Source of the DNA: a virus
Lineage: Duplodnaviria; Heunggongvirae; Uroviricota; Caudoviricetes
IMG/VR virus record: IMGVR_UViG_3300031993_000021
Length of the DNA stretch: 64,000 nucleotides
Reading direction: 5' to 3' (one strand)
Of this stretch, positions 4,464-20,707 are shown piece by piece. The notes under the pieces were generated by a model. The model ran no database searches and was not told the DNA's origin. It saw only the letters and a program-made list of their open reading frames with translations. A program made the translations under genes and the position numbers. Each line of letters begins with the position of its first letter. Positions within the stretch are counted from its first letter, which is position 1.

Positions 4464-5065
4464 TGGATATTGAGAAACAAAAGGAACTCTTTAAAAATCA
4501 CGTAGCTACATTTACAGATTATGGCAACATCAAGATTTTGGATTTTGCAAACCCAGAATCTATCTGGTACAGAATCAGATTTATTTTCGAAGAAGATTAT
4601 TTCAAAGTACATATCTCCGGTGATTTAGGTGAACTTATAGCATCCAACTATTGCAATATGCGATACATAGATTTTTATGATGATTTTGTACATAACACAG
4701 ATTATTTTATGGCAAAGGTTAATTGTCATAGCAGACCTTTTTATGAATACGATTATGAAAAAGCTAAAGAGGATTTGAATAAACGCTTTGAGGATTATGA
4801 TTTTGTTCCTAAATCCGATTTTGAAACAGAAGAAGAACTTAAAGAAGAAAAAATAGATGAGATACTTAAGGATTTTGATTGGAGAACTGGATTGGGTTCA
4901 AAAGCTTTTGACATATTAATGGAGATTGACGATGACTGCGATGAGTGGATTGACGAAATTGGCAGAGAAGAGACAGATATATTAGAACTTTATATGTTGG
5001 CTTTTGAATTAGCACAAGAGCAATTGGAAAAGCAATCAGAGGAGGAACAAAATGCTAAGCCTTGA
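4460..5065 (+). CDS. phage hypothetical protein
   Basis: 201 aa, acidic, coupled to neighbours. Confidence 0.7.
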   Translation: MMDIEKQKELFKNHVATFTDYGNIKILDFANPESIWYRIRFIFEEDYFKVHISGDLGELIASNYCNMRYIDFYDDFVHNTDYFMAKVNCHSRPFYEYDYEKAKEDLNKRFEDYDFVPKSDFETEEELKEEKIDEILKDFDWRTGLGSKAFDILMEIDDDCDEWIDEIGREETDILELYMLAFELAQEQLEKQSEEEQNAKP

Positions 5066-9121: not shown

Positions 9122-9425
9122 TGAAACAATTCTTGTTGAAATAGTAAGAGTAAATACAAAAGAAGTAGCTGCATTATATCTTCAGGATTATATTCAGAGC
9201 AATGGCTTTTTAAGTAATGAAGCTGGGGATATAATCAAAAAGCTATTAAAAGAAAAAGATGATAAACCTAAGCCTGATGTAAAACCAAATATAGAACAGA
9301 TGATAAAAGAAATAGAGGAACTTCCTGATACCATTTATAGCGGCAGCATAATGGATGTAACAGGTGTTTCCTGTAAAAATATGAAGGATAAAGTCATTGA
9401 AATCATTAGAAAATACTCCAAATAA
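9108..9425 (+). CDS. phage hypothetical protein
   Basis: 105 aa, overlapping neighbours. Confidence 0.55.
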   Translation: MLNLNETILVEIVRVNTKEVAALYLQDYIQSNGFLSNEAGDIIKKLLKEKDDKPKPDVKPNIEQMIKEIEELPDTIYSGSIMDVTGVSCKNMKDKVIEIIRKYSK

Positions 9426-9747
9426 TCAAATAGGACAACGTATCAAGTATTTGTTAATCCATAATAGAATGAACCAGAGGGACCTTGCAGATAAAGCAGG
9501 CATTACGTATACATCATTATCTAGGTATATTAACGGTGAGCGCATTCCAAATGGTAAAATCTTGGCCCAAATTGCTACTGCGCTCAATATAGATGCAAAC
9601 TTTTTACTTGGAATAAATAAAGATGTAGAAGATCCTGAGAAAGATTTTTATAAGGCCCAGAGATTAGCGGCAAGAAGTGCTGATAAATGGACTAAGAAAC
9701 AGAAAGCAGATTTAATCTTAGCGATAATGGGAGTTAATAATGATTAA
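9397..9747 (+). CDS. XRE-family helix-turn-helix regulator
   Basis: IGQRIKYLLIHNRMNQRDLADKAGITYTSLSRYINGERIP; stop overlaps tnpB start. Confidence 0.9.
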   Translation: MKSLENTPNNQIGQRIKYLLIHNRMNQRDLADKAGITYTSLSRYINGERIPNGKILAQIATALNIDANFLLGINKDVEDPEKDFYKAQRLAARSADKWTKKQKADLILAIMGVNND

Positions 9748-10906
9748 GTCAATTAAAGTAATGCTACTTCCTAATAATTTTCAAAAAACAAGGCTTCATC
9801 AACACGCGGGAGCAGCAAGATTTCTTTATAACTGGGCGCTTGCAAAAGAAGAAGAGAATTATGAAGCAGGCGGAAAGTTTATTTCTTATTATGAACTTGC
9901 AAAAGAGCTTACCGAGATTAAGAAAACAGATGAGTATGCATGGCTTAATGATATATCTGCTTGTACTTGTCAGGCCGCGATTAAAGATGCTTGTGAGGCT
10001 TATAATAATTTCTTTAAAAAAAGAGCCAGGCATCCAAAATTTAAGTCAAAGAATAGATCGGCCCCTAGTTTTGCACAAACAGATCAGGCTATAGAGTTTA
10101 CTTCTACACATGTTAGACTTAGCAGTTTATCTAAAAGCCTTAAAAGAAATAGAAAAAAACTAAACTGGGTAAGGCTTGCCGAACATGGCAAGATACCAAT
10201 AGATGTAAAACATAGCAATCCAAGGATAACTTTTGATGGCATAAATTGGTGGATTAGTGTAGGAATAGACTATCCGGAAAATGATGTTAAATTATCTGAG
10301 GAGGGATTAGGTGTTGATCTAGGAATAAAAAACCTTGCTGTTTGTTCTGATGATAGCATTTATCCTAACATCAATAAGACTAAGGCAATCAAAGATTTAG
10401 AGAAGAGAAAACGAAGATTGCAACGAAGTATATCCAGGAAATATGAGATGAACAAAAAGGGGGATGAATTTGTAAAGACAAAAAATATAATAAAAGATGA
10501 GAAAAAGTTATTAAAGATGCACCACAGGTTGAGTAATATTAGAAAAAACTATCTGCATCATACATCAAAAGAGATAGTAGAAAAGAATCCAAAATATATC
10601 TGCATTGATGATCTTAATATTCAAAGTATGATGAAAAATAAATATCTTTCAAAAGCATTTCAAGAACAGTCGCTTTATGAATTTTCAAGACAGCTTGAAT
10701 ATAAGAGCAATTTCAAAGGAATTACATTTATCAGAGCAGATAAGGGTTATCCATCATCAAAGAAATGTAGCCTTTGTGGAAGGATAAAGAAGAATTTAAA
10801 GCCTTATCAAAAGACATATAAGTGTGAATGTGGAAATGTAATTGATGTTCATAAGCAAGCTGCACTTAACCTTAAATCTTATGGAGAAAATATTATTGCA
10901 GAATAA
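9740..10906 (+). CDS. tnpB: TnpB (IS200/IS605/IS607-type RNA-guided protein), RuvC triad altered to D/D/H, probably nuclease-dead
   Basis: N-terminal HAGAARFLYNWAL, RuvC-I GVDLG, RuvC-II ICIDDL (usually IEDL), Zn finger CSLCG..CECG, RuvC-III IDVHKQAALNL (usually DRD..AA.NL). Confidence 0.93.
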   Translation: MIKSIKVMLLPNNFQKTRLHQHAGAARFLYNWALAKEEENYEAGGKFISYYELAKELTEIKKTDEYAWLNDISACTCQAAIKDACEAYNNFFKKRARHPKFKSKNRSAPSFAQTDQAIEFTSTHVRLSSLSKSLKRNRKKLNWVRLAEHGKIPIDVKHSNPRITFDGINWWISVGIDYPENDVKLSEEGLGVDLGIKNLAVCSDDSIYPNINKTKAIKDLEKRKRRLQRSISRKYEMNKKGDEFVKTKNIIKDEKKLLKMHHRLSNIRKNYLHHTSKEIVEKNPKYICIDDLNIQSMMKNKYLSKAFQEQSLYEFSRQLEYKSNFKGITFIRADKGYPSSKKCSLCGRIKKNLKPYQKTYKCECGNVIDVHKQAALNLKSYGENIIAE

Positions 10907-11081
10907 AAATATTGTACCGGAAGCTGGTCCGGGAATTTACGCCTACGGAGTGTACTTGAACTTGTTAGTAGACAGCACCACCGTTGAAAGCATACACGAT
11001 GAAGTAGGAATGGAACATATAAGTATATCTTATTATAAGTTTTCAGCCGGGAGTAATCCCTTGCATCTTAAATAATTTGAC
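10907..11081 (+). ncRNA. TnpB omegaRNA scaffold (~10907-11050) plus guide-position segment (11051-11081)
   Basis: directly after tnpB stop; gtaccggaagctggtccgggaatttacgcc...aagttttcagccgg resembles clostridial TnpB right-end RNAs; 5' ccgg..ctg can pair with 3' cagccgg; boundary inferred. Confidence 0.7.
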
Positions 11082-11476
11082 CTTTTAGAAGTATGTAATT
11101 TGGCATAGGTGTAAAGCATATCAAGAAATGAAGTTTTAGAACTGATCTTTTAGAAGTATGTAATTTGGCATAGGTGTAAAGCTCCAATGGTGACAGCTGA
11201 CCTTTTGCAAAATTTTTTAGAAGTATGCAATTTTGCTTAGGTGCAAAGCTCAAGTGTGTTCATCTTTGCCACCAGAACTCTTTTAGAAGTATGCTTTTCT
11301 ATGTAGATGCAAAGCGGGCCACATTGCATCACGGTTTAAAGATATGAAATATTACATAGATGCAAAGCTGGCAGTGTCTTATAAGAAGCTATTTAAACTT
11401 CTAAAGGTATCTAAATTTGCATGGATGAAAAGCGTTTACGATATTGGAAGGAAATTAGTTTACATTGATGCAAAGC
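11082..11476 (+). CRISPR. CRISPR-like mini-array, 36-bp repeat CTTTTAGAAGTATGTAATTTGGCATAGGTGTAAAGC
   Basis: repeats at 11082-11117 and 11147-11182 (identical), 11214-11249, 11280-11315, 11333-11368, 11398-11433, 11441-11476 (more divergent distally); unique spacers of 29, 31, 30, 17, 29, 7 bp; no cas genes in window. Confidence 0.85.
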
Positions 11477-11802
11477 AGTACATGCAAATAATTCAGATGT
11501 AAAGCCTACGTTCTCATGACAAGAGAAATCAATTATTTCTTCTAAATAAGTGCAAAGCAAGTATGGTTATAGTTTTAATGCAAAGCAAATGTATGTATGT
11601 TTTTGATGCAAAGCCAGATCGTTATTTGGGTTGATAATATTTTTAGAAGCTTGATAAACCATACACCAAACTCATTAAAGCAAGCTTCTTTAAATTTATC
11701 AAGATGCAAAGTGTTGATATATTGTTAGCAAAAGGTCAATAGCAAAGTGAAGCATGTAATTGAGTAAAGAGGCAAAGCGGCACAGATATAAGGTTGCAAA
11801 GC
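11477..11802 (+). repeat. degenerate, mostly spacer-less tandem repeat tail of the array
   Basis: repeat 3' motif (GATGCAAAGC-like) recurs ending at 11505, 11558, 11586, 11614, 11681 (weak), 11712, 11748, 11778, 11802; units 24-67 bp, several with repeat-body fragments (aagtatg, gaagcatgtaatt). Confidence 0.7.
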
Positions 11803-12347: not shown

Positions 12348-12452
12348 ATGAATTATATCACAGTAATTATTGCAATAATAAACTGTTTGATTAATATAAT
12401 CGGGCTTGTTCTCAAAATTATAGAGAATAAGAAAAATAAAAATCGCTCCTAA
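12348..12452 (+). CDS. type I toxin-antitoxin toxin peptide (34 aa; not in ORF track)
   Basis: MNYITVIIAIINCLINIIGLVLKIIENKKNKNRS: one TM helix plus basic tail; GGGAGG RBS in a hairpin; 5' gtggtagcggttcccttga pairs with 3' tcaagggtactgctaccac. Confidence 0.8.
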   Translation: MNYITVIIAIINCLINIIGLVLKIIENKKNKNRS

Positions 12453-12515
12453 CCCTGCGTAAGTTTCGAGCGATTTTTATTGCTTAACTTCAAGGGTACT
12501 GCTACCACTTGTTTA
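12430..12515 (-). ncRNA. antisense antitoxin RNA of type I TA
   Basis: minus-strand promoter TTGAAA-16-TACAAT (about 12520-12547) and bidirectional terminator aaaaatcgctc...gagcgattttt overlapping the toxin 3' end; ends approximate. Confidence 0.65.
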
Positions 12516-20540: not shown

Positions 20541-20707
20541 GCAGTAGTAAGACACAGACAAGGACGATACGTATAAAGAATGAGACAGCGGACTTCTTTA
20601 GGGACAAGCCATTAAACAAAGTAGTTGAGAACGTGCATGACCTGGCGAAAAAGAAAGACATAGAGGTATATGAGAATGGGAAAATTGTTTTACTCGGTGG
20701 ACGGTGA
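20537..20707 (+). CDS. small RHH-like protein (not in ORF track)
   Basis: MSSSKTQTRTIRIKNETADFFRDKPLNKVVENV, 56 aa, ATGA overlap. Confidence 0.5.
   Translation: MSSSKTQTRTIRIKNETADFFRDKPLNKVVENVHDLAKKKDIEVYENGKIVLLGGR

What the first reader, a model, noticed from the sequence alone, without database searches (positions are those of the whole stretch)
11051..11081. Segment between omegaRNA scaffold and repeat 1 is spacer-sized (31 bp) and holds an 8-nt anti-repeat
Seen: from the inferred scaffold end (cagccgg, 11050) to repeat 1 is 31 bp, the same as the array spacers. It contains TTGCATCT (11061-11068), which pairs with the repeat 3' motif in all main variants: AGATGCAA fully, AGGTGTAA, AGGTGCAA and AGATGTAA via G:U wobble. 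Inference, two options: the IS end inserted at a repeat-spacer junction so the omegaRNA guide is a captured spacer, or the segment acts as a tracrRNA-like anti-repeat that recruits array crRNAs. A second TTGCATC in spacer 4 (11324-11330) can fold back on repeat 4.
Basis: partly seen in the sequence, partly recalled or inferred. Interest (0 to 1): 0.72.

Follow-up and report, generated by a model that had tools for sequence, protein, structure and literature searches.

The report
TnpB guide RNA with CRISPR anti-repeat
In a family of rumen phages, the guide RNA of a transposon-derived, probably non-cutting DNA-binding protein has gained a short fixed tail that most likely base-pairs with CRISPR repeats and also marks where new spacers are inserted, so the phage can probably reprogram the protein with DNA captured by its host's CRISPR machinery.

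Summary
11051-11081 is a fixed element (10 variants, 30-32 nt) in front of 19 different first spacers in sibling phages. It has three parts: a hairpin (11049-11060), TTGCATCT (first six bases invariant) and ATTTGAC, which resembles the type II-A leader end ATTTGAG. Lachnospiraceae Cas9 loci have related 36-nt repeats with the same 3' end, and the same T bias at spacer base 1. The omegaRNA (RAGATH-18) has lost the tail that closes its essential pseudoknot, and its partner loop now reads GCT, complementary to the AGC that ends the repeats. Decayed repeats keep only ATGCAAAGC. The TnpB clade has lost the third RuvC aspartate and changed its TAM-reading residues. Best reading (0.65): a TranC-like split RNA, with the omegaRNA as tracrRNA, read by a non-cutting TnpB aimed at sibling phages, with spacers supplied by host type II-A adaptation. 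Against: no compensatory change in the anti-repeat, a C-A mismatch in 7 of 17 first repeats, and no RNA data. The scan saw this system before on another genome (e1-1681485, e1-1681487).

The parts
9397..9747 (+). XRE-type helix-turn-helix gene overlapping the tnpB start; no tnpA next to tnpB
   Evidence: Pfam HTH_3 E 3.5e-13; same neighbour in most relatives
9740..10906 (+). IS607-type TnpB, 388 aa; RuvC triad D193 / E290D / D371H; TAM-reading positions K78Q and N115D
   Evidence: best PDB match ISFba1 TnpB 8IAZ, E 2e-69
10917..10932 (+). 5' hairpin of the omegaRNA; loop 10921-10928, whose GCT (10923-10925) is the predicted pseudoknot partner of the repeat's last three bases
   Evidence: stem has a G-C/A-U compensatory pair; loop compared with 21 intact IS607 relatives and with ISFba1 PK2
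10942..11010 (+). RAGATH-18 core of the omegaRNA
   Evidence: Rfam RF03064, 62.2 bits, E 3.8e-11
11011..11050 (+). Last stem-loop of the omegaRNA and remnant IS607 right end; TAACGG tail of intact relatives replaced by a shorter, variable one
11049..11060 (+). New 4-bp hairpin GGGA/TCCC across the old IS end; stem invariant, loop variable (GTAA, GAAA, TTTAA, TTTAG, TTTAT)
11061..11068 (+). Anti-repeat TTGCATCT, complementary to repeat bases 26-33; first six bases invariant
11069..11073 (+). Variable linker with substitutions and one-base indels
11074..11081 (+). Leader end AATTTGAC, like the type II-A group 1 leader end ATTTGAG; predicted site marker for host Cas1-Cas2
   Evidence: host loci end in ATTTGAG or ATTTGGG; PMC5382924; PMC4330368
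11082..11315 (+). Four full 36-nt repeats (11082, 11147, 11214, 11280) with spacers of 29, 31 and 30 nt; newest end next to the omegaRNA
   Evidence: spacer turnover across relatives
11316..11802 (+). Decayed trailer: about ten short units that keep only the repeat's 3' handle (ATGCAAAGC-like)
11625..11712 (+). Enlarged trailer unit: long hairpin with a conserved ACACCAAAC loop motif, ending in a handle
   Evidence: found in 9 sequence variants with different stems that all fold
20642..20671 (+). Protospacer for the first spacer of sibling phage L001 (4 mismatches here; perfect in L001's own genome and in G003), next to a gene start

Best explanation
The segment is the joint that turned an immobilised IS607 TnpB into a CRISPR-guided system, and it has two jobs. 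As DNA, its last 8-9 bases are a minimal type II-A leader end, so host Cas1-Cas2(-Csn2-Cas9) adds spacers behind it. As RNA, it is the 3' extension of the omegaRNA, which now acts as a tracrRNA: a small hairpin and then UUGCAUCU pair with the repeat's 3' handle, and the repeat's last bases (AGC) close the pseudoknot with the 5' hairpin loop that the omegaRNA's own tail used to close. The spacer that follows the repeat then sits where the guide sat, so a Cas9-type array is read in Cas12 order (repeat, then spacer). The newest spacer can be used in cis through repeat 1, like a natural single guide; later units would be loaded in trans. The TnpB probably binds without cutting and blocks transcription or replication of sibling phage-plasmids. 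SHOWN: conservation and anatomy of the segment, spacer turnover, kinship of repeat and leader end with host II-A loci, loss of the tail, handle-only decay, RuvC and TAM-residue changes, targets in sibling phages. INFERRED: every RNA-RNA pairing, crRNA loading, host-supplied adaptation, loss of cutting, repression.
For: Segment fixed in front of 19 first spacers. TTGCAT invariant in 18 loci while the hairpin loop and linker on either side vary. 21 of 21 intact relatives with both parts readable have a GTTA loop and a TAACGG tail, the pseudoknot that is needed for RNP formation in ISFba1; the clade has lost TAAC and has GCT in the loop, which pairs with the repeat's AGC in 17 of 17 first repeats. 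In trailers ATG(C/T)AA is followed by AG(C/T) in 52 of 72 contexts, against 0 of 74 elsewhere in the window. The fully Watson-Crick core ATGCAA is in 44 of 87 decayed units against 11 of 85 full repeats (units are related by descent). The anti-repeat prefers the repeat's 3' half (mean -6.7) to its 5' half (-4.6) and folds onto repeat 1's 3' end in cis. Cas9/Cas1/Cas2/Csn2 loci have related 36-nt repeats with both 3' variants and the leader end TAATTTGAG. Spacer base 1 is T in 41 of 85 phage and 100 of 213 host spacers. Five phage protospacers (at most 3 mismatches; shuffled best 7) have A-rich 3' flanks (15 of 20 A at positions 2-5) and no 5' motif. No cas1 in four phage records. All 16 full-length clade proteins lack D371; 103 of 103 nearest relatives keep DED. 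Two spacers match their own phage.
Against: No two-sided compensatory change between anti-repeat and repeat within the clade. 7 of 17 first repeats carry a C-A mismatch and pair at only -3 to -4 kcal/mol, near the null. The loop's GCTG could pair instead with the omegaRNA's own CAGC (11044-11047) in 13 of 17 loci. Variation at the repeat's 3' end mirrors host repeats, so its conservation in full repeats need not come from the anti-repeat. The junction is GAC/CTTT, not the GAG/GTTT of known II-A loci, and the true host was not identified. The folding z-score of 11010-11117 is 0.67, not significant. D-to-H at RuvC-III may leave activity in other TnpB branches (PMC10691335). With no 5' motif at the targets, the model needs a TAM-relaxed protein, which is untested. 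Only 5-6 protospacers.
Confidence: 0.65

Rival explanations
1. Leader only. The segment is a remodelled type II-A leader; TTGCATCT folds back on repeat 1 as a leader-repeat hairpin of the kind described for II-A and type VI arrays, and TnpB does not load array crRNAs.
For: Leader-repeat hairpins are common in II-A systems (PMC13187072) and form in related host loci. The segment folds onto repeat 1 in cis. No covariation.
Against: Does not explain the loss of the omegaRNA tail, the loop change to GCT, handle-only decay of the trailer, or why TnpB and the whole omegaRNA are kept in nearly all loci. Host leader hairpins pair with the 5' and middle part of the repeat, not the 3' end.
Confidence: 0.13
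2. Cas9 hijack. The array is a phage mini-array used by the host Cas9 and its tracrRNA; TnpB and the omegaRNA are neighbours or regulators.
For: Repeats, spacer length, leader end, T bias and A-rich 3' flanks are all II-A-like.
Against: The repeat's 5' half, which Cas9 needs, starts with C, is the part lost in the trailer, and pairs with a related host tracrRNA at -6.6 against -24.4 kcal/mol for the host repeat (not necessarily the true host). A perfect self-targeting spacer exists.
Confidence: 0.08
3. Fixed guide. The segment is the omegaRNA's own guide (TldR-like), with the pseudoknot closed by the internal CAGC; the array is incidental.
For: It lies where a guide lies; CAGC can pair with loop GCTG in 13 of 17 loci; it is conserved.
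Against: The would-be seed is the most variable part and is locked in a hairpin. CAGC is broken without compensation in 4 of 17 loci and in L087. No target in the phage; the host genome is unknown.
Confidence: 0.07
4. Same RNA architecture, but the TnpB still cuts or nicks through a rearranged site, which would make it an ordinary active TranC.
For: D193 is invariant, four proteins keep E290, the zinc finger is kept; RuvC-III histidine branches may be active.
Against: D371 is required in ISFba1; position 371 drifts between H and N and 290 between E and D; R370 and the LSDR motif are changed; no new invariant acidic residue; self-targeting spacers. This rival shares the anti-repeat reading and differs only in output.
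Confidence: 0.15
5. Captured spacer: the IS end landed at a repeat-spacer junction and uses an old spacer as its guide.
For: Length of 30-32 nt and position.
Against: Fixed across 19 arrays, structured, ends in a leader motif, and sits at the end where new spacers enter. The length match is best read as coincidence.
Confidence: 0.02

Closest known systems
TranC transposon-CRISPR intermediates (Jin et al., Cell 2025; known here only through PMC13565253 and bioRxiv 10.64898/2026.03.27.714800; LaTranC 9JFO)
   Same: TnpB-sized effector from an IS605/IS607 lineage next to a cas1-less array; omegaRNA split into tracrRNA and crRNA; one phage-borne member (CauTranC9) is reported.
   Different: RuvC triad altered; the omegaRNA is still an almost whole RAGATH-18 RNA joined directly to the array; one 31-nt piece is both anti-repeat and leader end; repeats are II-A-derived. 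LaTranC is distant (E 8e-12 over the C-terminal part). Whether this clade is among the published TranC clades could not be checked.
ISFba1-type IS607 TnpB with RAGATH-18 reRNA (PMC11061315, PDB 8IAZ)
   Same: Protein family, RNA core, 5' hairpin and right-end remnant.
   Different: No tnpA, D371 lost, G-rich TAM residues changed, own pseudoknot tail lost, followed by a live CRISPR array.
TldR nuclease-dead TnpB repressors (bioRxiv 10.1101/2023.11.30.569447)
   Same: Immobilised TnpB with a decayed RuvC site, carried by temperate phages.
   Different: TldRs use a single fixed guide RNA; here guides appear to come from a changing array.
Cas12m, Cas12c and CRISPR-linked dCas12f (PMC10691335, PMC13472631)
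   Same: Array-guided binding without DNA cutting.
   Different: Separate origin: this clade sits on its own branch (100/100) among intact IS607 TnpBs at about 62% identity.
Type II-A group 1 leader and array (PMC5382924, PMC4330368) and virus-borne mini-arrays
   Same: 36-nt repeat, 30-nt spacers, leader end, polarity, targets in related viruses.
   Different: GAC/CTTT junction, no cas9 or tracrRNA, and decay keeps the repeat's 3' end instead of the 5' end that Cas9 uses.

Membership tests
Captured CRISPR spacer | Differs between lineages and turns over | tested here: not met
   10 near-identical variants in front of 19 first spacers
TranC | Effector derived from IS605/IS607 TnpB | tested here: met
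TranC | Adjacent CRISPR array with turning-over spacers | tested here: met
TranC | omegaRNA split into tracrRNA and crRNA that pair | tested here: inconclusive
   complementarity, tail loss, loop change and handle-only decay, but no two-sided covariation and no RNA data
TranC | Intact RuvC triad and DNA cleavage | tested here: not met
   D / E or D / H or N in all clade proteins; activity itself not testable here
TranC | Falls in a published TranC clade | not testable with these tools
   Jin et al. 2025 is not held
IS607 TnpB-omegaRNA element | RAGATH-18 RNA behind tnpB | tested here: met
IS607 TnpB-omegaRNA element | Pseudoknot between 5' loop and the element's own 3' tail | tested here: not met
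   TAAC tail lost; the alternative CAGC is broken in 4 of 17 loci
IS607 TnpB-omegaRNA element | Serine-recombinase tnpA upstream, variable flanks | tested here: not met
   XRE or small phage genes upstream, same right flank in all loci
IS607 TnpB-omegaRNA element | G-rich 5' TAM and its residues | tested here: not met
   K78Q and N115D fixed in the clade; 2 G in 25 upstream bases of five targets
TldR | Two or more RuvC changes | tested here: met
   E290D and D371H in this protein; four relatives have only the D371 change
TldR | Single fixed guide matching a TAM-flanked promoter | tested here: inconclusive
   no target of the segment in the phage; host genome unknown
TldR | Represses transcription without cutting | not testable with these tools
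   needs an assay
Type II-A array | 36-nt repeat related to Cas9-locus repeats, 30-nt spacers | tested here: met
Type II-A array | Leader-repeat junction ATTTGAG/GTTT | tested here: inconclusive
   ATTTGAC/CTTT: both junction G bases are C
Type II-A array | cas9, cas1, cas2, csn2 and tracrRNA in the locus | tested here: not met
   no cas1 in four phage records; no Cas9-sized ORF near the array
Type II-A array | Repeat 5' half pairs with a Cas9 tracrRNA | tested here: not met
   -6.6 against -24.4 kcal/mol with a related host tracrRNA; true host unknown

The most novel reading that the evidence does not exclude
A young, independent CRISPR system caught at its origin: a non-cutting, TAM-relaxed IS607 TnpB reads a Cas9-type array in reverse register through a 31-nt piece that is both tracrRNA anti-repeat and leader end, so that host Cas9 adaptation keeps rewriting the guide of a phage's natural single-guide RNA and gives it an adaptive CRISPRi against sibling phages, its own genes and possibly host genes.
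Probability: 0.4. Interest if true: 0.78.

Novelty: new variant of a known kind. Interest (0 to 1): 0.62.

Why it matters
How a transposon omegaRNA becomes tracrRNA plus crRNA, and where a cas1-less phage array gets its spacers, are central questions for the origin of type V CRISPR. Here the ancestor (about 62% identical, intact IS607 TnpB) and a probable donor type of array (Lachnospiraceae II-A) are both at hand, so each step maps to a few bases and residues that can be tested one by one. The locus also shows a possible conflict: new repeats must look like host repeats to be expanded, while old ones fit the anti-repeat better. If the protein has a relaxed TAM and does not cut, it would be a 388-aa multiplexable repressor.

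Tried and rejected
Covariation inside the clade: none on both sides; no more distant non-cutting relative was found by a profile search or by a DNA pattern for the loop. Loop A pairing with spacer base 1: the T bias (41 of 85, p 0.003) is the same in host II-A spacers (100 of 213; Fisher p 0.9), so it reflects acquisition. Origin of the segment from an inverted host tracrRNA: looked striking by eye, but ranked only 4th to 684th among about 700-1300 windows. TTGCAT as a -35 box: not among the promoter-like sites, whose number equals the shuffles. Second TTGCATC in spacer 4: not conserved. Listeria 'phage' match to the repeat: a single copy, no array. Metatranscriptome contigs of three studies cover 9300-11111 but cannot show strand, ends or transcription. 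Host search: the repeat pattern found nothing exact in GTDB; 213 host spacers gave only 6-mismatch matches to the phages; L093 spacers found nothing in 201 genomes; window spacers 2 and 3 found no target in IMG/VR. Strand bias of targets (5 of 6 antisense to the gene) is too small a sample. The AlphaFold model (pLDDT 72.7, pTM 0.50) was not used. The count of structure pairs was mistyped twice; pairs were counted by script instead.

Full report
Setting. The window is part of a 76.4-kb tailed phage record (portal, major head, terminase); relatives carry Rep3 and ParA genes, so the family looks like phage-plasmids, and the sample names and runs point to ruminant gut. At 9740-10906 lies a 388-aa IS607-type TnpB, followed by a RAGATH-18 RNA (10942-11010, E 3.8e-11), a right-end remnant ending at 11050, the 31-nt segment, four 36-nt repeats and a decayed trailer.

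Observation. The anti-repeat pairs with the window's repeat ends at -8.3 to -10.9 kcal/mol, which 1.2% of spacer pieces reach. The copy in spacer 4 is not conserved in L001 and is chance.

The segment is not a spacer. Seventeen protein clusters at 78-96% identity form one branch (100/100) apart from intact IS607 TnpBs at about 62%. Every locus that extends far enough has the same segment, in 10 variants of 30-32 nt, in front of 19 different first spacers. New spacers enter next to it and shared, decayed units lie at the far end. Column by column: GGGA and TCCC are invariant around a loop that varies in sequence and length; TTGCAT is invariant; the linker varies; AATTTG and the final C are invariant in that alignment.

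Its 3' end is a leader end. A pattern search of Lachnospiraceae genomes found arrays with related 36-nt repeats at a 66-base period, ending in GGTGTAAAGC or GGTACAAAGC, the two endings common in the phages. One lies behind cas9, cas1, cas2 and csn2, and these leaders end in ATTTGAG or ATTTGGG, the type II-A group 1 motif; about ten bases on each side of the junction are what adaptation needs (PMC5382924, PMC4330368). The phage has ATTTGAC followed by CTTT. Spacers start with T equally often in phage and host arrays (48% and 47%), five protospacers have A-rich 3' flanks and no 5' motif, and four phage records lack cas1. Host II-A adaptation is therefore the likely source of spacers. The actual host was not identified.

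Its middle is probably an anti-repeat. In ISFba1 a pseudoknot between the 5' hairpin loop and the last scaffold bases is needed to form the complex (PMC11061315). All 21 intact relatives in which both parts could be read have a GTTA loop and a TAACGG tail. The clade has lost TAAC, and its loop reads AAGCTGGT. GCT pairs with the AGC that ends the first repeat in 17 of 17 loci; it could also pair with the RNA's own CAGC, but that is broken in 4 of 17 and its CA closes the last stem. Anti-repeat (8 bp) and pseudoknot (3 bp) together use exactly the last 11 repeat bases, and those are what the trailer keeps: ATG(C/T)AA is followed by AG(C/T) in 52 of 72 trailer contexts against 0 of 74 elsewhere, and the perfect core ATGCAA is in 44 of 87 decayed units against 11 of 85 full repeats (many units share descent). 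Cas9 would need the 5' half, which is lost in the trailer and pairs poorly with a related tracrRNA. In cis the anti-repeat folds onto the 3' end of repeat 1, which would make spacer 1 the guide of a natural single-guide RNA.

Limits. The anti-repeat never changes on the side of a compensatory pair, so the covariation test is empty; 7 of 17 first repeats have a C-A mismatch and pair weakly, although trailer units in most of those loci pair well. Leader-repeat hairpins are a known feature of II-A leaders (PMC13187072) and form in the host loci, which gives a rival reading and perhaps the origin of the motif. No RNA ends could be mapped.

The protein. All 16 full-length clade proteins have H or N at the aspartate that ISFba1 needs (D371), twelve also have E290D, while 103 of 103 nearest relatives keep DED. 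The TAM-reading positions changed as well (K78Q, N115D), which fits targets with no 5' motif. Targets found are sibling phages; one spacer matches its own genome perfectly and another with two mismatches, two cover ribosome-binding or start regions, and one matches the ABC-transporter signature in Lachnospiraceae chromosomes. This suits binding without cutting, though D-to-H branches may keep activity.

Comparison and verdict. It works like a TranC (split omegaRNA beside a cas1-less array) with a TldR- or Cas12m-like output. It fails TranC membership on the catalytic triad and TldR membership on the single fixed guide; the TranC clade list could not be checked. The scan already noted this system on another genome (e1-1681485, e1-1681487) and a scaffold-keyed array in another cattle-gut phage (e1-5386535, not tested here). 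What this finding adds is the anatomy of the joint. New variant of a known kind; interest 0.62.

Noticed in passing
L141:10860-10880 (P0017; also L142-L145): Natural deletion that joins tnpB near codon 288 to the middle of the omegaRNA, removing RuvC-II/III, the zinc finger and the 5' half of the RNA; segment and array are kept, with a first spacer of their own. 11 member sequences.
   Followed up: partly
window 11625-11712: Enlarged trailer unit: a long hairpin whose stem differs between phages but always folds, with a conserved ACACCAAAC loop motif and a handle at its end; the sequence after it varies. Function unexplained.
   Followed up: partly
L002:4708-4736: Spacer whose reverse complement encodes the ABC-transporter signature LSGGQ; 3-6 mismatches to many Lachnospiraceae chromosomal loci.
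   Followed up: partly
L001:4378-4407 and L002:4971-5000: Self-targeting spacers: perfect match in the L001 phage's own genome next to a gene start; two mismatches in the L002 phage's own tape-measure-like gene.
   Followed up: yes
L002:4577-4605 and 4708-4736: Both 29-nt spacers with known targets are followed in the target by C, the first base of the repeat; possibly a 30-nt prespacer merged with the repeat start.
   Followed up: no
L002:4379-4408: A spacer that itself contains the handle-like AGATGCAAAG; present twice in the array.
   Followed up: no
P0004 (L236:4648-5817): Looks recombinant: N-terminal half like P0015, C-terminal half like P0001.
   Followed up: no
window 12348-12452: 34-aa hydrophobic ORF with a strong ribosome-binding site, a hairpin at 12435-12481 and complementary flanks; resembles a type I toxin-antitoxin module (by eye, from memory). 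HicAB pairs lie at a similar place in L090, L139 and L141.
   Followed up: no
L224, L227-L230, L232 (host II-A leaders): Leaders fold with the first repeat through stems that change with the repeat variant; a tracrRNA lies upstream of cas9 on the opposite strand (L194 about 10690-10790).
   Followed up: partly
L140:1840-1870: P0012 locus has the loop AAGCTAGT: GCT kept, next base changed; the protein has also lost D369.
   Followed up: no
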